From: an uncultured Atopobium sp.
Lineage (GTDB): Bacteria; Actinomycetota; Coriobacteriia; Coriobacteriales; Atopobiaceae
Direction: 5' to 3'
Length of the DNA: 64,000 nt
Assembly (NCBI GenBank): GCA_947090525.1
Contig: CAMUON010000001.1
Coordinates: 388,473-452,472 of the forward strand
The translations under genes were made by a program, and so were the position numbers. Below are positions 33,497-56,200 of this stretch, in pieces. A model generated the notes under the pieces. The model did not search any database and was not told the DNA's origin. It was given only the letters and a program-made list of their open reading frames with translations. The first letter of the stretch is position 1. Each line of letters starts with the position of its first letter.

Positions 33497-33846
33497 TTTC
33501 AGATAAGCATGTCTGCTTGTACGTTGAAGCTGCGTTGTTCGGGCCGCTCATTCCGACTGCCGCACATGGGTGTTGGCTCATGCCGTTGCCCAGCACACGC
33601 CCGGCCACACGCCCGGCCACACTGCCCACGCATTCTTAGTTTTTTCTCTTGAATTTTTTATCAAATATCGTAGTATTATTGAGTATATATCATATGTTAT
33701 CGGGCAAACGGTAAACGCAGACTAAACAAACCACGCCGCCTGCCGCCGTCGCAGCGCTTCGCCGCTGCGACCAGCATTTATGTACTGCACTAAGCGGCTT
33801 TGAGCTTTTGTTTATATGCGCTTTACTATCTTGGAAGGGTGCAAGG

Positions 33847-35469
33847 ATGAAAGGCTCAATAAGCTCGCATGCAGTTGTTTGTGGTCTTGTGTGCGCTAGC
33901 ACAGTTGTATTTCCTCCCTTGGCGTGTGCACAGGCGCCCGCGCAAGGCAATCCCTCCCTTCTTTTGAGCGAAGCATACATGAATTTTGGCCTGGGCTTTT
34001 TGGCCGGCGTTGGCATAAGTGGCCTTATTACAACCATTGGTATCATGATTTACGCGCATAGGCTCGAAGTGCGTGCGGCGGAAGATATCGAGTTCGAGAC
34101 CTGCGTATTTACGCCCTCGCGCGCGACTTCGGCTGCGTCTGCGGATGTTTCTACAAATGGATATGCGTCCGCGCCTACGTCTAAAAATGCGTTCGTAGCT
34201 GCGACTAGCCCCGCGGCTACGACTAGCTCCGCGGCTGCATCTGCATCTACATCTACTCCCGCATCGGCTCCAGCGCCCTCAGGGCCAGAGTCTTGCGGTG
34301 TTCTTTCACAGGCGTCTTCTTCCGCCAATTCTCTACGCGCGCGCCTTTCTCAGATTCCCCAGGTAGATGCCCCAATAGCTTCGCACCCAGATACGCCAAA
34401 AGCTTCGCAAAAAGCTTCACAAAAATCAGAGCAACAAGCTTCGCAAAAAGCTTCACATCTCACCAATAGTCTTGAGGATTTTGCCGAGCATTATGCGCAG
34501 CATGAGAGTTTCAAAGAGCGCATGATGACGCGCGCGCAAGGTGTGAGAGAGATCCTTTCGAGTCGTTTGTCGAAAAATCGATATAGCGATATTCCGGTTA
34601 TCGAGCGCGCAGATGGTTCCGTAGGCGATGTGGGCGAGACCTGGTGGAGCGCTTGCGTCGACGAAGAATTGCAAAAAACTGGCAAACTAGCAGGATCGCA
34701 AGTGGCTCAAGTTACGGGGAGTGTGTCTGCTGTCGCAGCCTCCGCACCCGCGCCTGCAGCTTCAGTGCCCGCACCCGCGCCTCAAGCACTCGCGTCCGCG
34801 CCTGCAGCTGCCGCTCCAGCTTCTAAAAAACCTGCAGCGTATCCTCAGCTTTCGCAGGGTCAACGCATTGCGCGATCAATTGCCGAGGTAGACGAGGGTA
34901 TATATCCCATGCGTCGTGAGGTTGAGGATCTTGAGAAGAAGGATCTCTTCGAGGAAGCGCTTCGTGCGATGGGCGATGCTATGCCCGCTGATCAGGCAAA
35001 AGCTCCTATTTTTGCTGATTCCATAGGTGGAAGTTCAACTATCGATGAGGTTGACGATATCGAGGCTGCAACTGCGTTTATACCCTTTAAGGTGCCGCCC
35101 GCGCATCCAGAGATTCATGACACGAAGAGCTACATCGATTACCTGGTAGAAGACGAGTTTAGGCGGAGCAAGCAGCAAAAGCATCGCGCTCACACGCGCT
35201 CGAATGCGCCTGCGCCCCATGCTCCTATGCTTCGCGTGATTGAGGGCGGTAGCCAAGCGCTGCCTAAATTAGCTACTGGCGTCTGGAGTATGAGTGCATC
35301 TAATGGTCGGAAAAACCCGAGCTCAGATGTGCGGTCTCATACGCCTAAACATATGAGGCTAGAAAGCGAGAATGCGCCAGCCTCTGCGTCCTCGCTCATG
35401 CCCGCAGCTTCGCGTACAGTCTCTCACGCGCCCAAGCATTTTACTCTTTCTCCTGTCAAGGAAGCGTAA
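33847..35469 (+). CDS. Hypothetical secreted/membrane-anchored low-complexity (A/S/P-rich) protein
   Basis: Signal peptide ending AQA, one TM helix, long A/S/P/Q-rich tracts. ORF begins 33808; ATG 33847 chosen. Confidence 0.4.
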   Translation: MKGSISSHAVVCGLVCASTVVFPPLACAQAPAQGNPSLLLSEAYMNFGLGFLAGVGISGLITTIGIMIYAHRLEVRAAEDIEFETCVFTPSRATSAASADVSTNGYASAPTSKNAFVAATSPAATTSSAAASASTSTPASAPAPSGPESCGVLSQASSSANSLRARLSQIPQVDAPIASHPDTPKASQKASQKSEQQASQKASHLTNSLEDFAEHYAQHESFKERMMTRAQGVREILSSRLSKNRYSDIPVIERADGSVGDVGETWWSACVDEELQKTGKLAGSQVAQVTGSVSAVAASAPAPAASVPAPAPQALASAPAAAAPASKKPAAYPQLSQGQRIARSIAEVDEGIYPMRREVEDLEKKDLFEEALRAMGDAMPADQAKAPIFADSIGGSSTIDEVDDIEAATAFIPFKVPPAHPEIHDTKSYIDYLVEDEFRRSKQQKHRAHTRSNAPAPHAPMLRVIEGGSQALPKLATGVWSMSASNGRKNPSSDVRSHTPKHMRLESENAPASASSLMPAASRTVSHAPKHFTLSPVKEA

Positions 35470-35755
35470 ATCCTGCGCCTTAAGTAATTGGCATACAATC
35501 CGCACCTTCTGCGCAGGAATATATATTGTATGCAATAGAGGGTTTATGTATGACGTTCGTATAATCGTACATAAGCCCTCTAATCATCTCTATACCTATG
35601 TGATAGCTGGCAACACCCAATATACCAAGAGCTATAGCCCTATACCAACGTAAAACTTTCTAGACTTATCGGCAAACTTATGTGATACTTAAAATACTGT
35701 ACACAATATACAACCACCATCATATCGTGGCGCGCTGTAACTGATAGGAGTAGGT

Positions 35756-38056
35756 ATGAAACAGGTATCGCATGGCACAGGCGTACGGCATTCGCTTACT
35801 AAGATAGCCGTCGCATCCGTTCTCTCGACTACACTTGGAGTGGGGGGGGGGGTAGCTCTTTCTACGACCTCATATGCGCAGTCGCAAAGCGTAGATCAAT
35901 CTACTGATACTGAGCGGACATGGACTGAACACACTGCACAGTGGAGCGATGCATACGGACAACACCAGCCTTTTTCAAAGATTAATACACAAGGCAACTT
36001 AGAGGGCGTTTTTTGTAATCGTTCTGAAAGTTCGGGTGGTCAAACCAAAGTTTGGACTTCAGCAAAATACACCTTTTATCGAAGCGACCATGATGGGTAC
36101 AAAAAAGGCGACCTCGTTATCGAACCTATTAATGCCTCTGGCGTGATTAAAGCTGGTCCATCTAATAATGATTACAGGGTATGGCTAGAAGATAAAGAAA
36201 TTTATAAGAACGTAAAGCGTATTATCTTTAAGCAAGCGACGATCGCAGGCAACAAGGTTGGGTGCACCCTAAAACTAAACCAATGGAGTTATTCTCAGTT
36301 GTTTAATGGCATGCCTGCTGTCGAGCTCATAGATTTTCGGGGACTTACGTTCCAAACCGAAGCGGGTTCTTATCCAATTGCCTGGCGTATGTTTGAGAGC
36401 TCCCCTAAGCTCAGAACGATACTTTTTAATGCAAATATTAAAAAGCAATTTAGTGATATAGCATATTTTAACTATATGTTTGCAAAGTGTTACAATTTGA
36501 GACACATTCTGGCAAAAAGCCCAGATGAAGTGGTTGATGAAAGCACGTTACCTGCTTGTGATCTAAGCGGCCTTAGTGTCTTTGATACACAAAATGCAAA
36601 ATCCATGAAAGCCATGTTTGAATTTTGCCGTTCGATGACTGATTTTAAGTTTAAGGATTACACCAATTTTAAGACGAGCAAAGTTCAAGATTTTTCTTAT
36701 ATGTTTTCTGGCCTCCCTACGACATCCGCGCAGGATAAGCTTGAGAATGACTGGGAACCGGACACGTTTACCGTAGCAGAGGGCGAGTTCAAGGATATGA
36801 AGGGCATGTTTGAGCTAAAAAAGCTCGATCTGTCTTCGTTCGATACATCTTCCGCAAAGACCATGTACCGCATGCTGATTGGGCAAGAAGGCCTCACCGA
36901 GCTTGATCTTTCGGGTTCGTTTAAGATGTCGGAAAATACTTCTACAAACGAGATGCTACGGGGCGTGCATGCGCTGCAAAAGTTGAAGGTCAACAAGAAC
37001 ATAGTCTTTACGAACAGCATGATGCTAAATGAACCGAATGACAACATTTATAAAGAATATATCCGACCAACGTTTGATAGAAAGAACACAAAAACTTATT
37101 CGGGCAAATGGATACAAGAAGGTAAAGTTGACACAGCATATACTACAAAAGACTTTTGGTATACAAGCAAGATTAGTGAGCTCAAGAAACCCCTGGCAGA
37201 CAATGGTTCTCTTACGTTTGTTTGGCAAGAGAAAGATTCATCTGTGCCCTCTACGAACCAGCAAAACAAGCAAATTACGATCGTAACTAATGAAGGTTTG
37301 TTTGACAATAACGCTTTTGTAAAGTCTCTTACAACAGACAATAACGGCAAATTGAACGCTACTGACCTCCCAACAAAAACGAAGGAAGGTAGAAAGATTA
37401 CTGGCTGGTACAAATTAGGCGATCCCGCGAAAACGCCCGTTTCGCTGGATACCACAGAATTTAAAGAGAATACTACGCTTGTAGCACTCTTGGAAGCAGC
37501 TACACCGGGTGGCGCTGGTGATCAGGGCGGATCTGGCTCTGGCACGGGCAGTGGCGCTGGCACGGGTAGTGGCTCTGGTAGCGGTGTCGGCGGTTCATTA
37601 GGATTTGTGCCTCAGACTGGGGATACAGGCGCCGCGAGTGAACTTGTTGCGATGTATCGTCTGTATAATTCTTGGACAGGAGAGCATCTCTTTACGATTG
37701 ATAAGAGCGAGTATGATACCCTTGTTTCTGCAGGTTGGAAGGGTGAAGGCAGGATCAATAGTGTCGCCACGAAGGAAGGGGAGAGTGTATACCGCCTGTA
37801 TAATCCCTGGACGCATGAACACCACTATACAACCGATAAAGACGAGCTCGCTTCGTGCGTAGCCGCTGGTTGGAAGAACGAAGGCGTGCAGTTCCACAGT
37901 GTAAAGAATGGCGCGGTAGCTGTGTACAGCATGTATAATCCGTATGAAACGTCGTTCTACCACCACTACACGTCCGACCTCAATGAGATTAGCCGGATGG
38001 AGAAAGACGGTTGGATAAAAGAGGGCATCAAGTGGTACGCCGCGGCTAATTATTAG
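35756..38056 (+). CDS. Surface protein: signal peptide, DUF285-like (BspA/Mycoplasma-type 26-residue) repeats, G/S/T linker, three C-terminal YRLYNPxTxEHxYT...GWKxEG repeats; contains G11 tract at 35842-35852 (in frame, ON)
   Basis: N-terminal signal sequence. Motifs DLSxFDTSxAKxMxxMF. GSGSGTGSGAGTGSGSG linker. Three tandem repeats of about 45 aa. Confidence 0.65.
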   Translation: MKQVSHGTGVRHSLTKIAVASVLSTTLGVGGGVALSTTSYAQSQSVDQSTDTERTWTEHTAQWSDAYGQHQPFSKINTQGNLEGVFCNRSESSGGQTKVWTSAKYTFYRSDHDGYKKGDLVIEPINASGVIKAGPSNNDYRVWLEDKEIYKNVKRIIFKQATIAGNKVGCTLKLNQWSYSQLFNGMPAVELIDFRGLTFQTEAGSYPIAWRMFESSPKLRTILFNANIKKQFSDIAYFNYMFAKCYNLRHILAKSPDEVVDESTLPACDLSGLSVFDTQNAKSMKAMFEFCRSMTDFKFKDYTNFKTSKVQDFSYMFSGLPTTSAQDKLENDWEPDTFTVAEGEFKDMKGMFELKKLDLSSFDTSSAKTMYRMLIGQEGLTELDLSGSFKMSENTSTNEMLRGVHALQKLKVNKNIVFTNSMMLNEPNDNIYKEYIRPTFDRKNTKTYSGKWIQEGKVDTAYTTKDFWYTSKISELKKPLADNGSLTFVWQEKDSSVPSTNQQNKQITIVTNEGLFDNNAFVKSLTTDNNGKLNATDLPTKTKEGRKITGWYKLGDPAKTPVSLDTTEFKENTTLVALLEAATPGGAGDQGGSGSGTGSGAGTGSGSGSGVGGSLGFVPQTGDTGAASELVAMYRLYNSWTGEHLFTIDKSEYDTLVSAGWKGEGRINSVATKEGESVYRLYNPWTHEHHYTTDKDELASCVAAGWKNEGVQFHSVKNGAVAVYSMYNPYETSFYHHYTSDLNEISRMEKDGWIKEGIKWYAAANY
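35842..35852 (+). other. Homopolymeric G11 tract inside the signal-peptide region of surface protein 35756-38056
   Basis: Counted directly (encodes VGGGV). A change of one G would shift the frame. Confidence 0.8.
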
Positions 38057-38207
38057 ACTATAAGATGCGTTTATAAGCGCTTTATAAGCGCTGATGTTTA
38101 AACGCGCTGGTCTATAACAGCCGGTAGCTGTTGTTCTGCTTAAACGAAGCGCGGCACGAGCAAAAGCTTGTGTCGCGCTTGTGCTTACCCTAATTTAAAG
38201 CGTGCGT

Positions 38208-40205
38208 TTAGTCGATCATCTCATTGATATCCCAGGTAAACGGTGCTGCTTTGCCATTGTATGCCTCATATGCAGCTTTCACTGCTCCTGTGAGCTTGGC
38301 GTCTTTCGGATTGTTCATCCACTTGACATACGCGTCAACATAGGCGTTGTAGTTTTTCTTTACTTCTTCTTTTGCATCTGCCTTGGGCGCTTCAGAGCCA
38401 AGAACACTACTCTGCAATCTGATAAGAAGCCCATAGCGCACATACTCGGGATCGGATGTGTAAGAAACGCGATTCATGCCCGCATACTCTCTATGTGGAT
38501 TTATCAGATATGCAGCTGCTTCGATAGCGTCTTTACGTGCTTTGAGCTTTGCTTCATCAGTTTTCGCAGTACTGTATTCAAGCTCTGCTTTCTTGAGCTT
38601 ATATATACACAGCTGTACATCGGGGTTCTTCGCGGGCACATCTGCTTCTTGTTTGAATGCCTTCCACTGTTCATTAAGCGCTTTTTTGGTCGCTTGAGTA
38701 TAGCCTTCAGTTTCCACGAACTCGCGGGTGACTTGGGTTGTGCGATAGGACGGCAGCTTCAGATAGGGTGATTGCGCGCGCGTATCTTTTGTAATTGCTG
38801 CAATCTTTTTATCCAAGTCGCCTACTTTGTCTGTTGTTGTTGCGTGATAGGCACTTGTATCTTTCGCGCAGAGCGTCATGTTCAGCTCTGGCAAGCCGCT
38901 TGGAGCATGTTCATCCTTCGCAAGCGCTGGTACCTGGTAGTTGTGGGCCTTGGGAGTGGCGTCAGCATCATCATATGCTGTAAATGTAACGTCGTAGGCT
39001 TTGGTTTCTGCATTATAGCGTACACGGCGAAGCTGGAGTTTGTCTCCACTTTGCACTTTATGTGTATCGTTAACCACGTCCAAAACTGCAGCTGCTTCTG
39101 TATAGCGAGCGCTTGCGGTTTTTGTTACTGCCTCTTCGCTTTTGCCATACATTTGCGATGCAATGCATTTGTATACGGTGACCTGCGTGTCTTTAAGTGT
39201 TGTGGTGCCTTTCGGGTCGTTGGTAAAGTGGAGCGTATAAGTAACGGGAACCACTTTCTTTTCGTCGGTTTCTACGGCTGTTTTTGCTTCATTAAAGGCT
39301 TTTTTAGCGGTATCATCATTTGGTTTCTTGTCCAGCTCAGCCTTTTTCTGTGCAAGCTCATTTAGGTTTTTCGCATACTCTGCGTCAAATTCTTTTTCTT
39401 TTTGAATAAGGGCAGCTGTAGCAGCTTGAGCTTTTACTTCCTCGCTGGCACTGGCCTCTTTTGCTTTCTTTGCGAGGTCTTCTGCTTTAGTTTTAGCAGC
39501 AGTAGCGCGCGTGGTTAGCTCTGTAACGGCCTCTGCACCTGTAAGTGTTTTACCAACAGCAGTTGTAACAGTTGTTGCGGCTTTACGTGTTGCGTCAACA
39601 AGGTCCTTAACAGACTCTTTTGCCTTGTTGAGAACAGCTTTCTGCTCTTTGCTTAACTCTTTGCTTAAGCTAGGCGTAGATGATTCGCTTGAGCTCGAAG
39701 GGTTGGAGCCGGTGCCGGTGCCCACACCGATAATAACATCGCTTGTGCCTGCTGCAGGAGCTTCCGCAGGAGTTTCTGCGGGCTTTCCAGGTACGAACCA
39801 TTGTTCATGCTCGTCTTTCCAGCCGCGAGCTACGCTATCGCTCACTTCAGACGGATTTGTAGTAAAGAAGTGTGTATGTTCTTGTTCGTAGGGATTAAAG
39901 AGACGATATACCGGCTGATTTGCAACCTCAGATTTTGCTGCAAAACCATATGCCTCAAATTTGTCGTCGAGTTTCATACCACGTGCAAGACACTCGTCTT
40001 TTTCTTGAGCATTTGTGGTATAGAGGTGATCGTCTCCCCAAGGATTATAGAGACGATAAATAGTTTCGACACCTTGTGTGCCTTTTACAGGGCTGTACCA
40101 GCCAATTCCTTCTTCATTCCAACCAACTGCACGAAGGCTTGCAGCTTCTTCTTCGCTTGGTGTATAGAGATGTTCATACGTATACGGATTATAGAAGCGA
40201 AGCAT
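38208..40205 (-). CDS. Secreted repeat protein (body): N-terminal YRLYNP-type repeats (3 or more), A/K/E-rich helical region, C-terminal domain; currently separated from its signal peptide by a frameshift at a C9/G9 tract
   Basis: Same repeat family as the C-terminus of 35756-38056. Upstream ORF 40226-40423 (minus strand) encodes the signal peptide in the -1 frame. Confidence 0.65.
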   Translation of the reverse strand: MLRFYNPYTYEHLYTPSEEEAASLRAVGWNEEGIGWYSPVKGTQGVETIYRLYNPWGDDHLYTTNAQEKDECLARGMKLDDKFEAYGFAAKSEVANQPVYRLFNPYEQEHTHFFTTNPSEVSDSVARGWKDEHEQWFVPGKPAETPAEAPAAGTSDVIIGVGTGTGSNPSSSSESSTPSLSKELSKEQKAVLNKAKESVKDLVDATRKAATTVTTAVGKTLTGAEAVTELTTRATAAKTKAEDLAKKAKEASASEEVKAQAATAALIQKEKEFDAEYAKNLNELAQKKAELDKKPNDDTAKKAFNEAKTAVETDEKKVVPVTYTLHFTNDPKGTTTLKDTQVTVYKCIASQMYGKSEEAVTKTASARYTEAAAVLDVVNDTHKVQSGDKLQLRRVRYNAETKAYDVTFTAYDDADATPKAHNYQVPALAKDEHAPSGLPELNMTLCAKDTSAYHATTTDKVGDLDKKIAAITKDTRAQSPYLKLPSYRTTQVTREFVETEGYTQATKKALNEQWKAFKQEADVPAKNPDVQLCIYKLKKAELEYSTAKTDEAKLKARKDAIEAAAYLINPHREYAGMNRVSYTSDPEYVRYGLLIRLQSSVLGSEAPKADAKEEVKKNYNAYVDAYVKWMNNPKDAKLTGAVKAAYEAYNGKAAPFTWDINEMID

Positions 40206-40225
40206 CTTTTGGCATGTAACGCCAT

Positions 40226-40423
40226 TTACCGTTTCTGTTGGGGGGGGGTGACTTCAGCAGCTTCAGCTTTAACACCCATGCCAAGGGTGCATACAAGTGC
40301 TGCTGTCATGCTGGCAAGTCCCAGCGCTTTTTTAGTAGACAACATACCCAAATCCTTTCTATTGGATGGTATACGAACAGACAACACATAAATACGCCTC
40401 AAGTATAAGCCTCTATAATGCAT
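40226..40423 (-). CDS. Signal-peptide-encoding 5' fragment of surface protein 38208-40205 (out of frame with the body at the current G9 tract)
   Basis: MLSTKKALGLASMTAALVCTLGMGVKAEAA is a classic signal peptide. Inserting one G into the G9 tract (40240-40248) fuses it in frame to the MLRFYNPYTYEH body. Confidence 0.55.
   Translation of the reverse strand: MHYRGLYLRRIYVLSVRIPSNRKDLGMLSTKKALGLASMTAALVCTLGMGVKAEAAEVTPPQQKR
40240..40248 (-). other. Homopolymeric G9 (C9 on the coding strand) tract; candidate slipped-strand phase-variation switch
   Basis: Counted directly. Frame analysis shows 10 G gives the full-length secreted protein; 9 G gives the signal peptide and body in different frames. 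Confidence 0.7.
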
Positions 40424-40512: not shown

Positions 40513-40728
40513 ACAAAACGCAGGCGCTCATATTAGAAAAATACCCCACTTTGTCACGTGTTGGAATGGCGACTGCTCGCAGGGCGAAGAAAGCTGTTTT
40601 GTGTTTCTCCAGGTAGTTTCGTTGCAGCTTGTTGATTGTGCTCTAAAAACTAGCCCGACGGACAATATTCGGCTCCCAAACACGTGACAAAGTGGGGTAA
40701 AGTTCTAATATCACTCAATACGTTTTGT
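40513..40728 (+). mobile_element. MITE-like 216-bp element, copy 2
   Basis: Same termini and same length as 11671-11886. The internal segment is diverged but collinear. Confidence 0.55.
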
Positions 40729-46655: not shown

Positions 46656-49600
46656 CTAGAGACGCTTTTTTCTGCGGTAGCTGCGTTCTACAAAGCGCTT
46701 ACGTTTGATATAGCCAAAGGCTATGCTCATAATGCCTGCTCCCAAAGCCGATGCGCATCCCACAGAAAGGGGAGAGTGGAGGAAGAGATCTGCTGTTTGC
46801 GCAAGGCGAGATGATCCTTCGTGTTGAGAGTGCTCCTCCTCGCTTGGGTTGTTCGTATGCTCATCGTTAGTTGCGCGCCCGTGTGCATCGTCTTCATCAG
46901 TGTCTGCTGTATCGTCTCCGCGCTGCTTATCGATGACATTTTCGTCGTCACGTCCTTCTTTGATGCCTTTTTTATTTGCATCCTTTTTGTCGTCTTCTAC
47001 CTCGGTATCCTCATCGTCTTGTGAAGTCTTGTCATTACGCGCGTGTTTTGACTTCTTTGACGTTCCTTTGTTCTTCTTGCGCGCATGTTTCGTGTCCGCG
47101 CTTGCTTGTTCATTGTCTTCGAGCTCGTCGCTCTCGTCGTTGTTGTCGAGCGCTCCCTTCTTTTCGCCTGTTTCGCTCTTCTGATCAAGCTCATTGGACG
47201 AATTGTGCCTACGTGTTCTATGCGCATTTCGCTTTGCTTCAAGGTCTTCGAGTGCTTTTGCGAGTGCGCGTGAAAGGGAAGCATCAAAGCCAGCGTTTGT
47301 GTTTTGTTCCTGCGGTTTTAGCTGGCTGGGATCGTTTTTGCCTTCGTTTGGTTTTTGCGCGGGCGTGTTTTCTGCTCCTGAGGGCGTTTGAGTTTGATCG
47401 TTTCCTTTCGGTTTAGATGGATCCGTTGTTGTATCCGGCTTTTTCTGCGAAGGATCCGCTTGAGAACTGTGCGTGTTGTCGCCTTTAGTAGATGCTGGAT
47501 CTGCAGGGTATGCATGCTTTTTGTCGTCGGTTTCAAAGAACATTTTGAGCGCTTTTTGCACGCGCGCAAGAAATACGCTTGCGTCCTGCCAAATCGTGGG
47601 CTTATCGTTCGTATGGGGTTTGGGCTCTTCCTTGGATTCGGGTTGAGTCTCTATCGTGCCCGATGGGTTGGTGTTTGGCGTGGTATGAGGATCCTTTTTG
47701 TCGGAGGAACCAGGTGTTGCACCAGGGATTACGCTGGGATCAGTCTTACCACCCGTTCCAGGTTTCTCACCCGGTGTCGAATCTGGCTTTGTACCAGGGG
47801 CTACGCTGGGATCAGCCTTGCCGCCTGTACCAGGAGTCGTGCCGGTACCTGTACCGGGAGTTGTGCCGGTACCTGTACCTGGAACTGTGCCGGTACCCGG
47901 GGTTGTCTCGGGTTTTTTACCAGGATTTGAACCCGGATCAGTCTTGCCACCGGCTCCAGGTGTTGCACCAGGGGTTACGCTGGGATCAGTCTTCCCGCCG
48001 GCTCCAGGTTTCTCACCTGGGGTTGTGCTTGAGTCGGGAGTTGTACCAGTACCCGTACTTGCGCCCGTGCCAGGAGTTGTGCCTGTACCAGCGCCAGTAC
48101 CTGGAGTTGTGCCAGGGGTCGTACCAGTGCCGGGAGTTGTGCCCGTGCCGGGAGTTGTGCCCGTGCTCGTACCTGCGCCGCTTCCGCCATCATTTGGCTT
48201 TGTTTGCTGCGTATCCACGAAGTCCCGATGTACTTTCAATGCGTCTACAGCTTCCGTTACCCCTTCGCGTGTGATTTCAAATTTGTACGAAACGGCCTTT
48301 GCTTTTTTATGTTCAATATTGATTTCCGTGAGCTTATATTTACCAAAAACCAGAGCTCCTTTAGCATCGTCTGCGCGCGTTTGCGTATCGCGGCCGCTAA
48401 ACCAGCATCCGAAGGGCTTTTGCGATGCATCCATCCGTGGAATTTGTGCCTGATTGAGCAGATAGTCAAGTGTATTCGTCGATTCAGAGTGCGCAACTAT
48501 GTTCGAAGAAGTATCGATAATCCCAGCTTCTGAGGACATGACCACATGACTTTCGTGCGTTTTTTCGTCTTGCAAGACAAACGTCTTCTTGCTAAGCACG
48601 CCTTTGCCTTCAAGGTCCAAAAGCCGCGCGCGGAAATCGCCGCGTATCACTTCGCAGCGCGGAATTGCGTGCTCCGGGAGCTCATAGCTAATATCGTCTT
48701 TGTTAACCACTACACTATAGTTCCATTTCTTGAGCGCATCGCTCATTTTGTAGCCCGTACCTACTGAGTGAAGTGAAAGCGTGTATTTCCCCTTGGGAAG
48801 CAGGTGCTTAGAAGTTTGTGCGCGCCCTTCAGCATTTGTTTTGATTGTCGTGATGAGTTCGCCTTTTTTATAGCTTTTGCCGCTTTTGCCGCCTATGGTA
48901 ATTGCATCTTCTCCAGCATTTTTTATCTCAAATTCAGCGCCTGCAAGACTTGCCGCGCCAAGTGGGTTTTCATTGCCCTCTTTATCGAGGATGCGTGCGC
49001 AAATTTGTGCTCCTTTGAATTGTTCCGGCTTTCGCTGCGTGCCGGCGTTTGGATTGACCACAACCAGCGCATTTGAACCCGTGATGGTGAAGTCTTGTGC
49101 ATAGAGAACGCGGGCTTTTTCGTCCTTCGCATAGCTGAGTTCTAGCGTATAGGAACCTATAGGCAACGTTCTTCCTGTTGTTTGCGCAGCTAAACCGTCT
49201 TTTGCATCACTTGCGCCCACGACATGTGGATGCACCACCAAGCATGCCTCATCCTTTTTGTGCGTTCTACCTTCGACGACGACGTCTTGGGTATTCTTAG
49301 ACCGAATGGTGTAGTTGACATCGTCCATCTGCGCTTCTTGGGGAATGCCCAGCTCATTGAGGTCATGTTTGTTGCTCACGACACGGATATCTCCGCTTAT
49401 GACAGAAAGTGCAATAGTGTTCTTGGGTATATCGTTGCCGCCCGAACTTGCGGGTTTTTCGCTTAGTGTATGCGTGCTTTCAAAGTTTTGGCTGCTATAG
49501 CCTTTGGAGCTTTGTTTATGGCTGATTTTTATGCTGCCAAGGGGGAGTGCAGCTGCCCCGTCCAAACTTGGAAAAAGAAGCTTACTATCATTCGTATCTT

Positions 49601-51596
49601 TGAGATGTGCAGCGTCCAGGCTTACATGCCCGTTCGCGTCAGTTATGAGCATGTAGCTGCGGTCGGCTTTTGCTTCTTTATTCTCTGCTCCCTTGGTATC
49701 TGTGAAAAAGTCGAGCTGAATTTCGTTATGCTCAAGCGTCGCACTGCCTTGCGCCTTGTTTGTTTTGAGGCCTGAGTCCATGTATTCTATGATGTCTTTT
49801 GTGCGATAGTACTGCGGCGTTTTGATGAGGGAAAGCTCTGCAGTCTTGTCCTTTTCGATGCTGACTTCATATATGGTTTTGTCTGCCACGTAGCCTTTTG
49901 AGCGTTTGAGCTCTTTTACGAAGTAGTGCCCGCGCTTGAGGCTTACCGCATCGATGCTTCCGTCTGGCCGACTCGTGAGTTCACAGACTTTGTAGGTGCA
50001 TTCTTTATCGGTATATACGCCGTGCGTGCTTTCTGCAAAGCTGTAATTGGGATTTTTGTCGCTTAGGGCCGGTACTTTTGAGACCATTTTTGCTGCGAGC
50101 GCGCCTTTTTCAAGATTGATGGCGTCATATTTGATGGTGCCCGTGGTATTTGAAAGTACCTCAAAGCCTGATTTGTCGCAGGAACCTACCCACACTTTAT
50201 ATATATTTTTATCTTGTTTAGCGCTATCCGCTTCCTTCACTTCTGGGAATTGTTTGAGGTAGTAATACCTATTTCCATGGAGATATTCACTTTGGCAGCG
50301 ACCATTTTTATCTGTTGTAATATCTTTTGCCGCGACATAGTTCTTGTTGTATGCAGATGCTTGTTTGGTGCATTCCTCATCCGAATAGATTCGATACGTG
50401 GTATTTGCATGCATGGTGCCCAAAGCTTCCGTATTCAGAATGAGGTATCCGCGCGGACGCAGGTAGTAGTAGGGGCCCATGCGATGTCTATTGAGTATGC
50501 CGCGGTAGGCGATGATATCTTTTGGTAATTCTTTACTGATGATTTGTCTGAATACGCTTGTGTCGCAACGTGTATCGCCTTCGTTACATATTCCGATAAT
50601 ATTTCTACCCATCCAGTCGTGTACGATACCCTTCATGCCGAGGCGGTTGGCATTATCTGTTCCGTAGTAATCCTTTGACGCGTGTTCTGCGATCATCAGA
50701 TAGGTGCACACATAGTAGACATCATCGGTAAGGGGCTCGCCATTCCAGTCGGTTTTTGGCCACATACTCTTGTCGAAACCAGGGCCACCGAATCCGTAAT
50801 ACATGATTTTGAATGGAATATCGTAATCGGGATAGCGGCGGTCCATATCGTTGTCTCGGTCGCAAAGACACACCGCAAGACCAGGTTCTGGATCTTCCGA
50901 GGCAGTCCAGCCATAATATGCAACATCATCACCAACATAGTATTTAGGGGTAGAAGCGCGCGGGCGATCAGAGGAAAATTTATATGGTTTGCGCTCAATA
51001 CGAAGGCCCGAAAAATCGATAATGCTTGATGGGCTATAGCGGACATACTGGTTGGCACCGACAAAATCCTCAGCGAGTGTGTAGAGCGGCGAGAGAACGT
51101 AAGATGATGTCATGGCAGCAATTACAACAAGAGCGAGGCTACACCTGACTGCGCGTGAATACACGAGGTCAAAGAGCGTATGTGGCGTATTCAATGCGTA
51201 CTTTTTTGAAGGTCTCCAGATGCGTGCCTGCATTTTTTTGTGCACGAGCGTGCGCATGCTTTGGAGTATGGGTTTTTTTATGTGATTGTGTATCTTTTTT
51301 TGTAGCTGTTTATGTACCTGCTTGCTTATCTGTTGCATGCGTTTTCTCATGCGCCGCGCACAGGTATGAATGCCTATGCGTAAGGAGCTCATCGGAAAGT
51401 GCTGGCGATACCGTCTCATGGCTAACTCCTTGTGTGTACTCGACGATCCTGGGATAGCGCGGGCAAGCGTGTGAGCGCTGGCGACGTATGGGCTGTTGTG
51501 TGTCCGCCCATGCAATTCCACGTGTTTGCGCGTGGTTAGGATCCATTTGTCTCCTAAAATTCGTTTCCCAAAATCTGATGGAAAGGTGGCACACAT
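46656..51596 (-). CDS. Very large cell-surface adhesin (up to 1646 aa; probable true start near 51257): N-terminal globular domain, multiple Cna-B/SpaA-type beta-sandwich repeats, P/T/G-rich stalk, K/E/D-rich region, C-terminal sorting-signal-like LAQTA plus hydrophobic segment plus KRKR
   Basis: Signal-peptide-like segment at MRTLVHKK...ALVVIAAMT. Repeated GxYxxxEL...GY...Y.V motifs. Stalk encoded by TPGTG repeats. Hydrophobic anchor with basic tail at the C-terminus. Confidence 0.6.
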   Translation of the reverse strand: MCATFPSDFGKRILGDKWILTTRKHVELHGRTHNSPYVASAHTLARAIPGSSSTHKELAMRRYRQHFPMSSLRIGIHTCARRMRKRMQQISKQVHKQLQKKIHNHIKKPILQSMRTLVHKKMQARIWRPSKKYALNTPHTLFDLVYSRAVRCSLALVVIAAMTSSYVLSPLYTLAEDFVGANQYVRYSPSSIIDFSGLRIERKPYKFSSDRPRASTPKYYVGDDVAYYGWTASEDPEPGLAVCLCDRDNDMDRRYPDYDIPFKIMYYGFGGPGFDKSMWPKTDWNGEPLTDDVYYVCTYLMIAEHASKDYYGTDNANRLGMKGIVHDWMGRNIIGICNEGDTRCDTSVFRQIISKELPKDIIAYRGILNRHRMGPYYYLRPRGYLILNTEALGTMHANTTYRIYSDEECTKQASAYNKNYVAAKDITTDKNGRCQSEYLHGNRYYYLKQFPEVKEADSAKQDKNIYKVWVGSCDKSGFEVLSNTTGTIKYDAINLEKGALAAKMVSKVPALSDKNPNYSFAESTHGVYTDKECTYKVCELTSRPDGSIDAVSLKRGHYFVKELKRSKGYVADKTIYEVSIEKDKTAELSLIKTPQYYRTKDIIEYMDSGLKTNKAQGSATLEHNEIQLDFFTDTKGAENKEAKADRSYMLITDANGHVSLDAAHLKDTNDSKLLFPSLDGAAALPLGSIKISHKQSSKGYSSQNFESTHTLSEKPASSGGNDIPKNTIALSVISGDIRVVSNKHDLNELGIPQEAQMDDVNYTIRSKNTQDVVVEGRTHKKDEACLVVHPHVVGASDAKDGLAAQTTGRTLPIGSYTLELSYAKDEKARVLYAQDFTITGSNALVVVNPNAGTQRKPEQFKGAQICARILDKEGNENPLGAASLAGAEFEIKNAGEDAITIGGKSGKSYKKGELITTIKTNAEGRAQTSKHLLPKGKYTLSLHSVGTGYKMSDALKKWNYSVVVNKDDISYELPEHAIPRCEVIRGDFRARLLDLEGKGVLSKKTFVLQDEKTHESHVVMSSEAGIIDTSSNIVAHSESTNTLDYLLNQAQIPRMDASQKPFGCWFSGRDTQTRADDAKGALVFGKYKLTEINIEHKKAKAVSYKFEITREGVTEAVDALKVHRDFVDTQQTKPNDGGSGAGTSTGTTPGTGTTPGTGTTPGTTPGTGAGTGTTPGTGASTGTGTTPDSSTTPGEKPGAGGKTDPSVTPGATPGAGGKTDPGSNPGKKPETTPGTGTVPGTGTGTTPGTGTGTTPGTGGKADPSVAPGTKPDSTPGEKPGTGGKTDPSVIPGATPGSSDKKDPHTTPNTNPSGTIETQPESKEEPKPHTNDKPTIWQDASVFLARVQKALKMFFETDDKKHAYPADPASTKGDNTHSSQADPSQKKPDTTTDPSKPKGNDQTQTPSGAENTPAQKPNEGKNDPSQLKPQEQNTNAGFDASLSRALAKALEDLEAKRNAHRTRRHNSSNELDQKSETGEKKGALDNNDESDELEDNEQASADTKHARKKNKGTSKKSKHARNDKTSQDDEDTEVEDDKKDANKKGIKEGRDDENVIDKQRGDDTADTDEDDAHGRATNDEHTNNPSEEEHSQHEGSSRLAQTADLFLHSPLSVGCASALGAGIMSIAFGYIKRKRFVERSYRRKKRL

Positions 51597-52207: not shown

Positions 52208-52284
52208 GGTGGGTGTAGCTCAGTTGGGAGAGCGCCGGACCGTGGCTCCGGAGGTCGAGGGTTCGAGACCCTCTACCCACCCCA
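52208..52284 (+). tRNA. tRNA-His (anticodon GTG) with encoded G-1 and C73
   Basis: G-1:C73 extra pair (His identity element). Anticodon stem CCGGA/TCCGG, loop CCGTGGC, encoded CCA. Position 33 reads C (unusual); verify with tRNAscan-SE. Confidence 0.75.
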
Positions 52285-52314
52285 TGTTGCTTGTCAATGC
52301 GTGCGTTTTGGAAT

Positions 52315-52390
52315 GGGTCGTTAGCTCAGTTGGTAGAGCAGGGGACTCTTAATCCCAAGGTCGAGGGTTCGACCCCCTCACGACCCACCA
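52315..52390 (+). tRNA. tRNA-Lys (anticodon CTT)
   Basis: First 27 nt match the textbook bacterial tRNA-Lys (GGGTCGTTAGCTCAGTTGGTAGAGCAG). Loop CTCTTAA, encoded CCA. Confidence 0.85.
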
Positions 52391-53112: not shown

Positions 53113-53252
53113 AGACAAAAGCCCCTCAGATGAGGGGCTTGCATATTGCAAGATTGGTACCTACGTACCGCCATACAAAACGTAATGGCTTTTAAGGTTA
53201 AACCTTTATTTTGACTTGCAGTGTCACTTTGACTGGAATCAAAGCAAGGCCA
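53113..53252 (-). ncRNA. Predicted tracrRNA (antisense, upstream of cas9)
   Basis: The plus strand at 53207-53250 carries a degenerate repeat-like sequence (TTTTGACTTGCAGTGTCACTTTGACTGG-AATCAAAGC versus repeat TTTTGGAGCAGTGTCATTTTGACTGGTAATCAAAC), so a minus-strand transcript carries an anti-repeat. Minus-strand terminator GCAAGCCCCTCATCTGAGGGGC plus TTTTGT at 53113-53140. Confidence 0.55.
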
Positions 53253-53281
53253 TTGTAATACATTTAGGAGCGTGTAACAAG

Positions 53282-56200
53282 ATGAATTTACGTAAAGCCT
53301 CTGATTATAGTGTAGGACTTGACCTCGGGACTGGTTCGGTAGGTTGGTGTGCTGTAGATAACAATGGCTATCTTTATTCATTTAAGCGCAAGCCTACTTG
53401 GGGAAGTAGGGTTTATGATAGCGCAGCACCCGCAGCCGATGCACGTCAGTTTCGCAGCCTGCGCAGACGTTATGACAGAAGACGTCAGAGGATAAATCTA
53501 TTACAAGGGCTGTTTTCAGAGGAAATGAAACATGTAGACCCTGATTTTTTCATCCGCTTGAATCAATCGCAATTACTCAAAGAAGACAGAGATGAGACTT
53601 GTAAGGAATATGCATGTCCACTTTTTAAAACTGTTGCGGATGAAAAAGAGTATTACAAAACGTATCCAACGATTTACCATCTTCGCGCAGCTCTTATGCA
53701 TGCAAACCAGAAAATGGATTTGCGGTTAGTTTATCTAGCACTGCATAACATTGTTAAATATCGCGGTAACTTTTTGTATCAGGAATACGCTCATCTATCT
53801 GCAAAAGACGCAGGCTTATCCGAGCAATCTAGCAACTTTCTTACGAGTATTGAACATTTTGAAGACGATCGTTGTATAAGTTTTACTTATGATACCGCAG
53901 AAATTATTCATTTCCTGAATAATTTAAAGCCAACACGAGCACAAAATCGTGATGAATGGCAAAAGCTGTTTGTGTGTGAGGCAAGCGACGACATTCCTGG
54001 AAAACAGGCAAAAGACATCACTAAATGCATTGCTCAAGCAATATTCGGATATCAAGCTGATTTCTCAGCGCTATTTGGAACTGAAAAAGAAAAATCAAAG
54101 TTTACGTTATCTCAAGATGAAAAGGTTATGGCGTTCGAAGAGCTATGCCCCACAGAATTTCTGCCCTTATTTAACGCGCTTAAAGCAATGTATTCTGCAT
54201 ATCTTCTAACAACCATCATAAGAGGCTCCAATGGCGGCACAATTTCAAACGCAAAAATTGCTCAATATAATGCATATCACGATGACCTCGCAAAGCTTAA
54301 GAAGCTTGTGAAACGCATACTAGGCAAGGATGAGTACGATACATTCTTTCAGGGTGTATATTACAAGAATACCAAGTTGTACAACAAGCAAAAAGCAGAA
54401 GGATACACCGCTTACAACTTGGGCAAACTAAGCTACGATGAGTTCAAAAAAGACCTTAAAAAGTTGATTGAAAAACTCGAAAAAAGCGGGGTTTTGAGCG
54501 CTGAAGATGATGCGTGGGTACAGCAGATTCCTACTCGTGTGGACAACGAAGAATTTCTAAGACGGCTGAGAACGAGTGATAACGGTAGTATTCCTTATCA
54601 GTTACATCTTGAGGAAATGGACGCGATCATTAAAAACCAAGGCAAATACTATCCGTTCTTACTCAAAGAAAAAGACAAAATTGAGTCGCTTATAACGTTT
54701 AGGATTCCTTACTATGTAGGACCTCTTACTCTAAAAAATGCTGCACGCGATGCTTATGGTAAGACTCGCTTTGCATGGATACAAAAGAAAGAGGGCGCCG
54801 AAAAAACACGGATACTACCATGGAACTGGGAGGATGTTGTCGATAAACATGCAACGGCCGAAGCGTTTATTAGAAGAATGACTGGTAAATGTACTTATTT
54901 GTATGCTGAAGATGTACTTCCAAAGTGTTCACTTTTATATCAGAAGTTTTGTGCATATAACGAGCTAAATGGTATGCGCTGGACAACAGATAATGACCAG
55001 TATAATCGCTTTAGTGCCGACTACAGAGAGGGTGTTTATAACGATCTTTTTGTTAGGAGTAACGGAAAAGTTACGTACAAAAAGATAGAACACTGGCTCG
55101 AACAGCAAGGTGAATTGCACCCTCATGTAAAAGGCGGTCAGGGAGAAAACGGGCTTGAAAGCAGGCTTTCATCGTACCATTTCTTTAAAGATTTGCTCGA
55201 GTTTGATGTTCTTACAGCTCGGCAAGAAAAAGAAATCGAAAAGATTATTTTATGGAGCACCATCTTTGAAGATCGAACCATTTTGAAAGAAAAGCTCAAG
55301 GCTCAGTCGTTTCAAACTGAATTTACATCTGCGTTTAGTCGTGTTTTAACCGCAGAACAGATACAAAAAATTTGTAAAAAACGATTTACCGGCTGGGGCA
55401 AGCTTTCTAAAAAGCTGCTTACTGGTTTGTCTGTAGATATAGATGGTGAACGTCTTAACATTCTCGATTTGCTGATACACGGTGATGTAACAGATGGTCG
55501 TGCTGGCCGCGCGCTTATTTTTCAAGAGATTGTGACCATGAAGCAATTTAAGGAAGCAATATCAAAAACAAACGAAGAAGCGCTTTCGAAATGCATAATT
55601 GATATAGACGACCTACCTTGCTCACCAGCAGATAAACGCACGGTCAACCAGGCACTTCGCGTGGTAGATGAAATTGCGTCTATTGCTAGTTGCGCGCCCT
55701 CACGAATTTTTATTGAGGTCACACGAGAGGAGGATACAAAAAATAAAGGCAAACGTACAGACAAGCGCACTTCAAAGCTCGAAATGGGGCTCAAAAAGCT
55801 TCGTGACAGCGAGGACACCAAGGCCATTCTCGCAGAACTTTCTGCTCATAAAAATCTAGATGAAAAACTCACGCTATACTTTGCACAAAATGGAAAATCA
55901 CTGTATTCGGGCACGCCACTAGATATTAACGAGCTTTCGCATTATCAGGTAGATCATATAATTCCACAATCATATATAAAAGACGACAGCATAGACAACA
56001 AGGCACTTGTACTTGCAAGCGAAAACCAGCGTAAGAGTGACAGCTTACTCCTAGATGATAGTATTCGCAGAAAGATGAGCAATACTTGGACCGCGCTATT
56101 TAAGGCGGGTCTTATGAGCGAAAAGAAATTCAATAATTTGAAGTGCTCAAGCATTACAGATCGTCGGCTAAAATCGTTCATCAATCGGCAGCTGGTAGAA

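What the first reader, a model, noticed from the sequence alone, without database searches (positions are those of the whole stretch)
35756..40423. Convergent pair of surface-protein genes sharing a YRLYNP-type repeat module, each with a 5' poly-G tract; one is currently split from its signal peptide (G9) - likely phase variation
Gene 35756-38056 (plus strand) has a G11 run inside its signal-peptide coding region and is in frame. The convergent minus-strand gene 38208-40205 has its signal peptide (40226-40423) in a different frame from the body, separated exactly at a C9/G9 run (40240-40248). Adding one G restores one continuous secreted protein (…AEVTPPPTETVNGVTCQKMLRFYNPYTYEH…). Both proteins carry three or more copies of the same 45-aa repeat (YRLYNPWTxEHxYTTDxxE...GWKxEG), C-terminal in one and N-terminal in the other. 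The plus-strand protein also has DUF285/BspA-like surface repeats. Homopolymer-driven ON/OFF switching of surface adhesins is well known in other phyla; it looks the same here.
Basis: partly seen in the sequence, partly recalled or inferred. Interest (0 to 1): 0.75.

Follow-up and report, generated by a model that had tools for sequence, protein, structure and literature searches.

The report
Two phase-variable surface protein genes
Two neighbouring genes for secreted sugar-binding surface proteins in an unnamed human-associated Atopobiaceae bacterium each carry a run of 9-11 G's just after their start, whose length differs between otherwise identical strains and flips the genes on or off; this switch is well known in other bacteria and is reported here in a group where I found no earlier report.

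Summary
G11 (35842-35852) lies in the signal-peptide region of an intact 766-aa gene. G9 (40240-40248) separates a 39-aa signal-peptide ORF from a 665-aa body on the minus strand, and C10, C7 or C13 fuses them. These are the only G/C runs of 7 or more in the 64 kb. Both proteins carry one DUF5648 domain, a three-bladed putative glycan-binding module. Gene A also has DUF285/BspA-type repeats.

In 25 related loci the tracts measure 8-13 (gene B) and 9-12 (gene A). The signal-peptide ORF and the body ORF are intact in every locus that holds the gene. Three pairs of contigs (10.7, 6.1 and 2.5 kb) are identical except for tract length. The gene A body is identical between the window and another strain, yet the tract is G11 versus G9.

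The same split-at-a-G9 layout occurs in a DUF5648 gene of Thermophilibacter provencensis. The best explanation is slipped-strand phase variation: gene A is ON and gene B is OFF in this genome. The closest known case is the Bifidobacterium breve pilin G-tract. I rate it a new member of a known kind, of moderate interest. Within-clone switching and protein expression remain untested.

The parts
35746..35750 (+). Shine-Dalgarno-like AGGAG, 5 nt upstream of the gene A start
   Evidence: Read directly from the sequence.
35756..38056 (+). Gene A: 766-aa secreted protein, in frame (ON) in this genome. Layout: signal peptide, N-terminal beta domain, DUF285/BspA-type repeats, beta domain, Gly/Ser linker, C-terminal DUF5648.
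   Evidence: ORF; Pfam; AF2 model with pLDDT 66.6; no LPXTG motif.
35756..35878 (+). Gene A signal-peptide coding region (residues 1-41, MKQVSHGTGVRHSLTKIAVASVLSTTLGVGGGVALSTTSYA|QSQ)
   Evidence: n-, h- and c-regions read by eye. Hydrophobic maximum (Kyte-Doolittle) 1.92 at residues 17-27 and no other hydrophobic segment. No dedicated predictor was run.
35842..35852 (+). G11 tract of gene A (encodes V-G-G-G-V in the hydrophobic core of the signal peptide). ON at 11 (also 8 or 14); OFF at 9, 10, 12.
   Evidence: Lengths in other strains: 9, 10, 12 (OFF) and 10 with changed flanks (ON).
36572..36727 (+). Best DUF285 (PF03382) stretch of gene A (residues 273-324). The repeat region extends over roughly residues 140-420.
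37649..38041 (+). DUF5648 domain of gene A (residues 632-762)
   Evidence: Pfam E 2.6e-37. 36% identical to the module of gene B.
38057..38207 (.). 151-nt spacer between the convergent genes, with an 11-bp-stem hairpin at 38067-38091
   Evidence: Terminator-like scan. This is a consensus match only.
38208..40205 (-). Gene B body as read from the internal ATG (665 aa plus stop): DUF5648, disordered linker, helix/beta domain, C-terminal helical bundles
   Evidence: ORF; Pfam; AF2 model of the restored protein with pLDDT 79.3.
39792..40205 (-). DUF5648 domain of gene B (restored residues 48-185). The model places its first strands at residues 37-53, so they start upstream of the internal Met.
40206..40239 (-). 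Segment between the tract and the internal ATG, coding in the body frame (..TETVNGVTCQK)
   Evidence: Conserved as protein in the body frame across species: 3 synonymous and 1 non-synonymous changed codons. The other two frames contain stops.
40240..40248 (-). C9 tract of gene B (G9 on the + strand), 3 codons after the predicted signal-peptide cleavage site. OFF at 9; ON at 10, 13 or 7.
   Evidence: Lengths elsewhere: 8, 9, 10, 11, 13.
40226..40345 (-). Signal-peptide ORF of gene B as it reads in this genome (MLSTKKALGLASMTAALVCTLGMGVKAEA|AEVTPPQQKR*, 39 aa)
   Evidence: Intact in all 19 loci examined (17, L022 and L023). Between species, 10 synonymous and 6 non-synonymous changed codons. Hydrophobic maximum 2.05 at residues 15-25.
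40353..40359 (-). Shine-Dalgarno-like GAAAGGA upstream of the ATG at 40345
   Evidence: Read directly from the sequence.

Best explanation
Genes A and B are two independent contingency loci, that is, simple-repeat phase-variable genes. Each encodes a Sec-exported protein built around one DUF5648 three-bladed module that probably binds a glycan (the cell's own wall polymer or a host or other microbial glycan). Each has a poly-G/C tract within the first ~105 nt of coding sequence: inside the signal peptide in A, and three codons after the predicted cleavage site in B. Slipped-strand mispairing during replication adds or removes G:C pairs. Only one length in three keeps the signal peptide in frame with the body. 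In this genome A (G11) is ON. B (C9) is OFF: translation from the ATG at 40345 stops after 39 codons, and the body lacks its own ribosome-binding site, its signal peptide and the start of its first domain. A single +1 (or -2) slip turns B on, and a single slip turns A off, so a clone can present four surface states. SHOWN here: the tracts, the frames, the domain content, tract-length polymorphism with intact flanking ORFs, hypermutability of the tract relative to its flanks, and conservation of the layout across species and in a second genus. INFERRED: the replication-slippage mechanism, reversibility within a clone, loss of protein in the OFF state, surface location, and glycan binding.
For: (1) These are the only two G/C runs of 7 or more in 64 kb, against 0.04 G9-mers expected by chance. 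Both lie in the first ~105 nt of their genes; my own estimate for random placement is p about 0.002.
(2) Gene B tracts in loci of the window's species read 9, 9, 9, 9, 9, 9 (OFF), 10, 10, 13 (ON) and 11 (OFF). In the sister species they read 8, 9, 9, 11, 11 (OFF) and one ON allele. Gene A tracts read 11 (ON), 9, 9, 10, 10, 12 (OFF) and 10 with altered flanks (ON).
(3) The signal-peptide ORF and the 660-767-aa body ORF are intact in every locus. Pairwise dN/dS is 0.3-0.7 within each species and 0.10-0.15 between the two species, so these are not decaying pseudogenes.
(4) L008 and L009 are identical over 10,751 bp except C10 versus C11. L023 and L013 are identical over 6,113 bp except C9 versus C11. 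L019 and L018 are identical over 2,531 bp except C9 versus C8. The window and L001 have 0 substitutions in 733 codons of gene A, yet G11 versus G9.
(5) Both the signal-peptide ORF and the segment between the tract and the internal Met evolve mainly by synonymous changes, each in its own frame. The AF2 model puts the first DUF5648 strands upstream of the internal Met.
(6) Every G/C run of 9 or more in about 212 kb of related Atopobiaceae DNA sits in or just upstream of a DUF5648 gene. This includes a signal-peptide ORF split from a body of more than 940 codons at a G9 in Thermophilibacter provencensis.
(7) A more distant orthologue (33% identity) encodes the same region without any homopolymer and is always in frame.
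(8) Genes A and B are more diverged between strains (88-92% DNA identity) than their flanks (95-98%), as expected for exposed antigens.
(9) There are experimental precedents with the same layout in Actinomycetota: B. breve bbr_0113a/b and bbr_1889a/b (PMC9187656), Gardnerella surface proteins (PMC11287997) and C. acnes PPA2127 (PMC3224659).
Against: No read-level data were available, so length heterogeneity within one population, reversibility and switching rate are not shown. Contig pairs that differ only at the tract could partly be re-assemblies of the same or related samples, so the difference might reflect assembler choice at a mixed or error-prone site. ON alleles are rarer than the one-in-three expected for random lengths: about 4 of 31 distinct gene B protein variants in the window's species. 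This may reflect selection, mutational bias toward C9, or some expression from 'OFF' alleles. No expression or localisation data exist. No signal-peptide predictor was run.
Confidence: 0.85

Rival explanations
1. Sequencing or assembly error: the true tract lengths are fixed and in frame, and the apparent frameshift in gene B (and the differences between assemblies) are homopolymer miscalls.
For: Homopolymers of 9-13 are error-prone on all platforms. The only differences between some contig pairs are at the tract, which is also what pure error would produce. The Gardnerella authors warn about this (PMC11287997).
Against: C9 in gene B recurs in independent assemblies from different projects and assemblers (window, L001, L010, L011, L025, L022; in the sister species L019-L021 and L023). 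Lengths span 8-13 and include 2- and 3-nt differences. Alleles with substituted flanks keep the frame (L011, L012). Consensus assemblies report the majority length.
Confidence: 0.04
2. Gene B is simply a pseudogene in this strain, made by a one-off frameshift with no switching role.
For: It is out of frame here and in most assemblies.
Against: In all 19 loci the only lesion is the tract length. The signal-peptide ORF and the 660-767-aa body have no other stops despite up to 60% protein divergence. dN/dS is below 1. ON alleles exist in the same lineages (L003, L008, L024). The tract is kept uninterrupted across two species.
Confidence: 0.03
3. Recoding rather than DNA switching: RNA polymerase slippage on the C/G run, or +1 ribosomal frameshifting on CCC-C proline codons, gives steady low-level full-length protein from 'OFF' alleles. 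Tract length then tunes the amount made rather than switching it on or off.
For: OFF-length alleles dominate (about 27 of 31 gene B variants), which would be less costly if they were leaky. Long homopolymers and CCC-C sites are known slippage and frameshift-prone sequences (own knowledge; review cited as ref. 44 in PMC9187656).
Against: OFF alleles need different corrections (+1 for C9, -1 for C11, +2 for C8), so no single programmed event fits. No stimulatory structure was looked for or seen. In the closest studied case, expression was attributed to replication slippage (PMC9187656). This can coexist with DNA-level phase variation and does not replace it.
Confidence: 0.07
4. The body of gene B is translated from the internal ATG (40205) as a cytoplasmic 665-aa protein, and the upstream ORF is unrelated.
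For: Gene callers annotate it this way in most assemblies.
Against: There is no Shine-Dalgarno-like sequence before that ATG. The 11 codons upstream of it are conserved in the body frame across species. The model places the first strands of the DUF5648 fold upstream of Met48. In-frame alleles fuse it to a conserved signal peptide. DUF5648 is otherwise found in secreted proteins.
Confidence: 0.01

Closest known systems
Bifidobacterium breve UCC2003 pilin genes bbr_0113a/b and bbr_1889a/b (intragenic G-tract; Penno et al. 2022, PMC9187656)
   Same: Same phylum (Actinomycetota). A short upstream ORF carrying the start codon, ribosome-binding site and Sec signal (65 aa for bbr_1889a) is split from a large surface-protein body by a poly-G tract. 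The annotated 'start' of the body lacks a ribosome-binding site and a signal peptide. Placing the two ORFs in frame restores the product. OFF is the usual state in assemblies.
   Different: Those are LPXTG sortase-dependent pilins heading pilus operons. Genes A and B have no LPXTG and no sortase or pilus context, carry DUF5648 instead, and are monocistronic and convergent. The organism belongs to class Coriobacteriia, not Bifidobacteriales. Switching was measured there and only inferred here.
Gardnerella spp. homopolymer-tract surface protein genes (PMC11287997)
   Same: Human-associated Actinomycetota. G/C tracts of 8 or more lie in or upstream of ORFs for surface proteins, and a 9-versus-10 length difference between sister colonies was shown by Sanger sequencing.
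   Different: Different protein families (Rib, GA, FIVAR, LPXTG). About 20 G/C tracts per genome, mostly upstream of ORFs. Here only two tracts are seen in 64 kb, both intragenic.
Cutibacterium (Propionibacterium) acnes PPA2127/PPA1880 putative adhesins (PMC3224659)
   Same: A poly-C tract in the 5' end of an adhesin gene, or a poly-G tract in its promoter, with strain-dependent length and matching presence or absence of the secreted protein.
   Different: Those are PT-repeat, dermatan-sulphate-binding proteins, in another class of Actinomycetota.
Classical contingency loci of Gram-negative mucosal bacteria (Neisseria opa CTCTT repeats in the signal-peptide region; poly-G genes of Campylobacter, Haemophilus, Helicobacter; PMC8355987, PMC5084427)
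   Same: A repeat in the 5' coding region toggles translation of a surface component by slipped-strand mispairing. Several loci switch independently and give combinatorial surface states.
   Different: Different phyla, envelope type and proteins. Those genomes have dozens of such loci, whereas the genome-wide number here is unknown.

Membership tests
Simple-sequence-repeat contingency locus (phase-variable gene) | Homopolymer or short repeat of mutable length (about 8 or more) in the 5' coding region or promoter | tested here: met
   G11 at 35842-35852 and G9 at 40240-40248, both in the first ~105 nt of coding sequence.
Simple-sequence-repeat contingency locus (phase-variable gene) | Length changes toggle the reading frame between intact ORFs | tested here: met
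   In-silico length series. The signal-peptide and body ORFs are intact in all loci, with ON and OFF lengths both observed.
Simple-sequence-repeat contingency locus (phase-variable gene) | The tract mutates much faster than the surrounding DNA | tested here: met
   Three contig pairs (10.7, 6.1 and 2.5 kb) have 0 mismatches and differ only in tract length. Gene A has 0 substitutions in 733 codons but G11 versus G9. Caveat: the independence of the samples is unknown.
Simple-sequence-repeat contingency locus (phase-variable gene) | Reversible, high-frequency switching within a clonal population | not testable with these tools
   Needs reads or colony sequencing.
Simple-sequence-repeat contingency locus (phase-variable gene) | Protein present in ON cells and absent in OFF cells | not testable with these tools
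   Needs proteomics or immunoblotting.
DUF5648 (PF18885) three-bladed beta-alpha propeller | Pfam HMM match above the gathering score | tested here: met
   A scores 128.5 bits and B 112.9 bits against a cut-off of 25.
DUF5648 (PF18885) three-bladed beta-alpha propeller | Three beta-beta-alpha-beta sub-domains | tested here: met
   The AF2 secondary structure of B residues 43-185 and A residues 634-762 shows three strand-strand-helix-strand units. This matches the description in PMC11299179 and bioRxiv 10.1101/2025.01.06.631476.
DUF5648 (PF18885) three-bladed beta-alpha propeller | Glycan or cell-wall binding | not testable with these tools
   Only suggested in the literature (O-antigen-targeting BSAP toxins, GH70 auxiliary domain, endolysin C-terminal domain). 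No solved structure was found by sequence.
BspA-like / DUF285 repeat surface protein (gene A) | PF03382 match above the gathering score | tested here: met
   35.7 bits against a cut-off of 25. Homologues are annotated 'BspA family leucine-rich repeat surface protein'. The NCBIfam PARCEL repeat scored below its cut-off.
Sortase-dependent pilin with G-tract (B. breve type) | C-terminal LPXTG sorting signal and adjacent sortase or pilus genes | tested here: not met
   No LPXTG in A or B. The neighbours are Maf, a glycosyltransferase, an ABC transporter and a 553-aa unknown protein. It works like that system but is not a member of it.
Sec signal peptide | Basic n-region, hydrophobic h-region, AxA-type cleavage site | tested here: inconclusive
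   Present by inspection and hydropathy and conserved, but no dedicated predictor was available.

The most novel reading that the evidence does not exclude
Poly-G/C tracts placed at or just after the signal peptide may be a lineage-wide device in Atopobiaceae, used specifically on the DUF5648 family of wall- or glycan-binding surface proteins. It is seen here in two species and in Thermophilibacter, both inside genes and in a 5' leader. It shows a strong bias toward the OFF length next to ON (C9). That bias could reflect host-driven selection or leaky recoding (transcriptional slippage or +1 frameshifting at CCC-C), so that tract length grades expression rather than simply switching it.
Probability: 0.2. 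Interest if true: 0.55.

Novelty: new member of a known kind. Interest (0 to 1): 0.4.

Why it matters
It gives a concrete, testable pair of switchable surface antigens in a poorly studied, apparently uncultured or unnamed human-associated Atopobiaceae species. It extends homopolymer phase variation from Bifidobacteriales and Propionibacteriales to class Coriobacteriia. It flags that automated annotation systematically truncates these genes: most database entries start at the internal Met or at a TTG inside the tract. It also links the uncharacterised DUF5648 module to variable surface display. For metagenomics, it marks positions where strain-level 'frameshifts' should not be read as pseudogenes.

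Tried and rejected
(1) The genome-contig scan with a gene B alignment found only distant DUF5648 relatives (Thermophilibacter, Ca. Olsenella pullicola) and not the window's species. The organism could only be placed as an unnamed Atopobiaceae from its ArgRS: 98% identity to an unnamed cluster, 77% to Olsenella urininfantis.
(2) The metagenome contigs pattern scan gave only two further loci.
(4) Invertible-promoter idea for the 50-nt inverted repeat upstream of gene B (40513-40728): set aside. It is a dispersed element with a second copy at about 11.7 kb, and the window and L001 have it in the same orientation. It remains untested where short-read contigs break inside it.
(5) Recombination or gene conversion between the two DUF5648 modules: rejected, because they are only 36% identical in protein.
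(6) Functional coupling of the convergent pair: rejected. The sister species has the gene B orthologue elsewhere, next to a 2,590-aa glycosidase. In L003 gene A is replaced by a different LRR-DUF5648 gene.
(7) Rfam: no RNA family in or near the locus.
(8) Literature searches for SSR phase variation in Atopobiaceae or Coriobacteriia found nothing specific.
Full report
OBSERVATION. The window (48.6% G+C) holds exactly two G/C homopolymers of 7 or more. These are G11 at 35842-35852 and G9 at 40240-40248; the next longest run is 6. A G9-mer is expected 0.04 times in dinucleotide-preserving shuffles.

G11 lies in codons 29-33 of the intact ORF 35756-38056 (+, 766 aa), here called gene A. The G9 reads as C9 on the minus strand. 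Upstream of it an ORF encodes MLSTKKALGLASMTAALVCTLGMGVKAEAAEVTPP and stops four codons later. Downstream, another frame is open for a further 676 codons to 38208; this is gene B.

Changing the tract in silico shows that C10 or C7 yields one continuous protein, while C8, C9 and C11 do not. Gene A is in frame only at G11 within the range 9-13. The one correction is the start of gene B. The ATG at 40345 (GAAAGGA 8 nt upstream) is more likely than 40423, because full-length homologues and gene calls on related contigs begin at MLSTKK.

WHAT THE PROTEINS ARE. Pfam places one DUF5648 domain at the C-terminus of A (residues 632-762, E 2.6e-37) and at the N-terminus of restored B (residues 48-185, E 1.7e-32). 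It also finds DUF285 repeats in A. The two DUF5648 modules are only 36% identical, so they are old paralogues and not a recombination substrate.

The 'three 45-aa YRLYNP repeats' are the three blades of this one domain. The AlphaFold2 models show three strand-strand-helix-strand units. This matches the published description of DUF5648 as a (beta3-alpha)3 three-bladed propeller. That fold is suspected to bind glycans. It occurs as a GH70 auxiliary domain (PMC11299179), as the receptor-binding domain of O-antigen-targeting Bacteroidales toxins (bioRxiv 10.1101/2025.01.06.631476), and as a putative wall-binding domain of an enterococcal endolysin (bioRxiv 10.64898/2026.04.26.720912).

Neither protein has LPXTG or a second hydrophobic segment. 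Relatives of A are annotated as BspA-family surface proteins. The rest of B is a disordered linker, a helix/beta domain and helical bundles (mean pLDDT 79 for the whole model). It has no informative match by sequence or fold. 'Secreted, glycan-binding surface protein' is thus a reasonable inference. 'Adhesin' is not shown.

ORGANISM. The window is chromosomal. It carries PFOR, ArgRS, Rho, RNase P RNA, tRNAs and a Cas9 gene. ArgRS is 98% identical to an unnamed cluster and 74-77% identical to Olsenella, Olegusella and Atopobium proteins. The source is therefore an unnamed member of the Atopobiaceae (Coriobacteriia, Actinomycetota). Related contigs come from human microbiome assemblies, including HMP samples.

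COMPARATIVE TEST OF PHASE VARIATION. Most database homologues of B begin at the internal Met (MLRFYNP or MFRFYNP). A minority are full length and read AEVTPPPTET or AEVTPPPPTET. Most homologues of A begin at a TTG inside the tract (MEWGGVALS), and a few are full length. I fetched the DNA for 25 related loci.

In the window's species, the gene B tract is C9 in the window, L001/L002, L010, L011, L025 and L022 (all OFF). It is C10 in L003 and L008 (ON), C11 in L009 (OFF) and C13 in L024 (ON). In a sister species (40-50% protein identity, different genomic neighbourhood) it is C8 in L018, C9 in L019-L021 and L023, and C11 in L004 and L013-L015 (all OFF). L012 has C11 with a flank substitution that restores the frame (ON).

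The gene A tract is G11 in the window (ON), G9 in L001/L002 and L008/L009, G10 in L010 and L024, and G12 in L025 (all OFF). L011 has G10 with changed flanks (ON).

In every locus that holds the gene, the signal-peptide ORF and the long body ORF are intact. Pairwise dN/dS of the bodies is 0.3-0.7 within each species and 0.10-0.15 between the two species. Between species the signal-peptide ORF shows 10 synonymous and 6 non-synonymous changed codons in its own frame. The 11 codons between the tract and the internal Met show 3 synonymous and 1 non-synonymous in the body frame, while the other frames contain stops. Both halves are thus kept as coding sequence in different frames. That makes sense only if they are joined when the tract length allows.

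HYPERMUTABILITY. L008 and L009 come from neighbouring run accessions. They are identical over 10,751 bp except C10 versus C11 in gene B. L023 and L013/L014 are identical over 6,113 bp except C9 versus C11. L019 and L018 are identical over 2,531 bp except C9 versus C8. The window and L001 have no substitution in 733 codons of gene A, yet G11 versus G9.

Caveat: I cannot tell whether some of these contigs are re-assemblies of the same or related samples. If they are, the difference reflects within-sample heterogeneity or assembler choice rather than divergence between strains. Differences of 2-3 nt, and the recurrence of the same lengths in independent projects, argue against simple miscalls.

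BREADTH. Every G/C run of 9 or more in about 212 kb of non-redundant related DNA sits in or just upstream of a DUF5648 gene. Two further cases were found:
- In the sister species, a G10 lies 75 nt upstream of the ATG of an LRR/Flg_new/DUF5648 gene.
- In Thermophilibacter provencensis, a signal-peptide ORF (…AAALADPGINEGGGSLK*) is split at a G9 from an open frame of more than 940 codons that ends in DUF5648.

A more distant orthologue of B (33% identity) encodes AEAPAAPTET without any homopolymer and is always in frame. Genes A and B are more diverged between strains (88-92% identity) than their flanks (95-98%). The gene A slot can hold a different LRR-G5-DUF5648 gene. This points to a variable surface-protein island in which DUF5648 is the shared module.

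MECHANISM. The best-supported reading is slipped-strand mispairing at two independent contingency loci. Gene A is ON and gene B is OFF in this genome, and one slip changes either state.

In the OFF state of B, translation ends after 39 codons. The downstream ATG has no ribosome-binding site, and the model shows that the first strands of the DUF5648 fold begin before it. A functional internal-start product is therefore unlikely.

The layout matches Bifidobacterium breve UCC2003 bbr_0113a/b and bbr_1889a/b. There a short signal-peptide ORF (65 aa for bbr_1889a) is split from a pilin body at a G-tract, and tract-length variants were measured and placing the ORFs in frame restored pili (PMC9187656). 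Gardnerella (PMC11287997) and C. acnes (PMC3224659) give further precedents in Actinomycetota. NucS-type mismatch repair does not correct indels (PMC8228993). I did not check whether this lineage uses NucS or MutS/MutL.

RIVALS.
- Sequencing error is unlikely as the whole explanation, for the reasons given above (probability about 0.04).
- Pseudogenisation is contradicted by the intact ORFs across species (about 0.03).
- An internal-start cytoplasmic protein is contradicted by conservation upstream of the Met and by the fold (about 0.01).
- Leaky recoding by transcriptional slippage or +1 frameshifting at CCC-C cannot be excluded as an added layer (about 0.07). It could help explain why OFF lengths dominate, at about 27 of 31 distinct gene B variants. 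It cannot replace DNA-level switching, because different OFF alleles need different corrections.

NOVELTY AND SCORE. I found no report of simple-repeat phase variation in Atopobiaceae or Coriobacteriia in the searchable library, and none that ties it to DUF5648 proteins. The mechanism and even the exact gene layout are well known elsewhere, so this is a new member of a known kind. The interest is moderate (0.4). It is a clean and unusually well-supported comparative case. It has practical value for annotation and for the biology of an unstudied human commensal, but it would not surprise a specialist.

Noticed in passing
window 40513-40728 and window ~11700-11857: A dispersed ~220-250-nt element with ~50-nt terminal inverted repeats (exact 21-nt core AACACGTGACAAAGTGGGGTA in both arms) and 116 nt between the arms. 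Two copies in the window align at about 75-80% in the same orientation. One copy lies about 170 nt upstream of gene B, the other next to a tRNA gene. Each arm contains an outward-facing promoter-like GTGACA-N16-TAATAT. There is no Rfam family. Short-read contigs from many samples break inside the arm nearest gene B, so it is probably multi-copy (MITE-like or a shared promoter module)..
   Followed up: partly
L008 76-213 (upstream of gene B): This strain carries an extra ~138-nt GC-rich insert between the inverted-repeat arm and gene B, relative to the window.
   Followed up: no
L003 2588-6003: In this strain the slot of gene A is occupied by a different 877-aa protein (LRR_4/LRR_8 repeats, weak G5, C-terminal DUF5648) with no homopolymer tract, next to a serine recombinase (resolvase) gene. 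This suggests cassette-like replacement of surface protein genes.
   Followed up: partly
L004 5207-5216: In the sister species a G10 tract lies 75 nt upstream of the ATG of a 587-aa LRR_5/Flg_new/DUF5648 protein that has its own signal peptide. The tract is therefore in the 5' leader or promoter rather than the coding region.
   Followed up: partly
L005 3590-6420 (Thermophilibacter provencensis NZ_JAUDEA010000014.1): A signal-peptide ORF ends just after a G9 tract (3694-3702), and another frame is open for more than 940 codons to the contig end, finishing in DUF5648. This is the same split layout in another genus.
   Followed up: partly
L016 1-5566: Next to the tract-less distant orthologue of gene B lies a type I restriction-modification locus with three hsdS genes and a tyrosine recombinase. 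This is the usual layout of an invertible, phase-variable specificity system.
   Followed up: no
window 53216-58355 (and the low-GC stretch 52-62 kb): A Cas9 gene (1,422 aa; REC, HNH, RuvC and PI domains) followed by further ORFs, in a region of 40-43% G+C against about 50% elsewhere. tRNA genes lie at 52209-52387. The CRISPR array was not examined.
   Followed up: no
window 46656-51596 (-): A 1,645-aa ORF with SpaA/prealbumin-like fold domains, probably another large surface protein. It has no G/C run of 7 or more.
   Followed up: no
window 33808-35469 (+): A 553-aa Ala/Ser/Pro-rich ORF directly upstream of gene A, with hydrophobic N-terminal segments and internal short tandem repeats. It has no Pfam or NCBIfam family and is conserved in position in related strains (539-577 aa).
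   Followed up: no
window 35756-40345 versus flanks: Genes A and B are markedly more diverged between strains (88-92% DNA identity) than the flanking housekeeping genes (95-98%). The C-terminal half of gene B exists in several very different allelic forms in the sister species (674, 680, 760 and 767 aa).
   Followed up: partly
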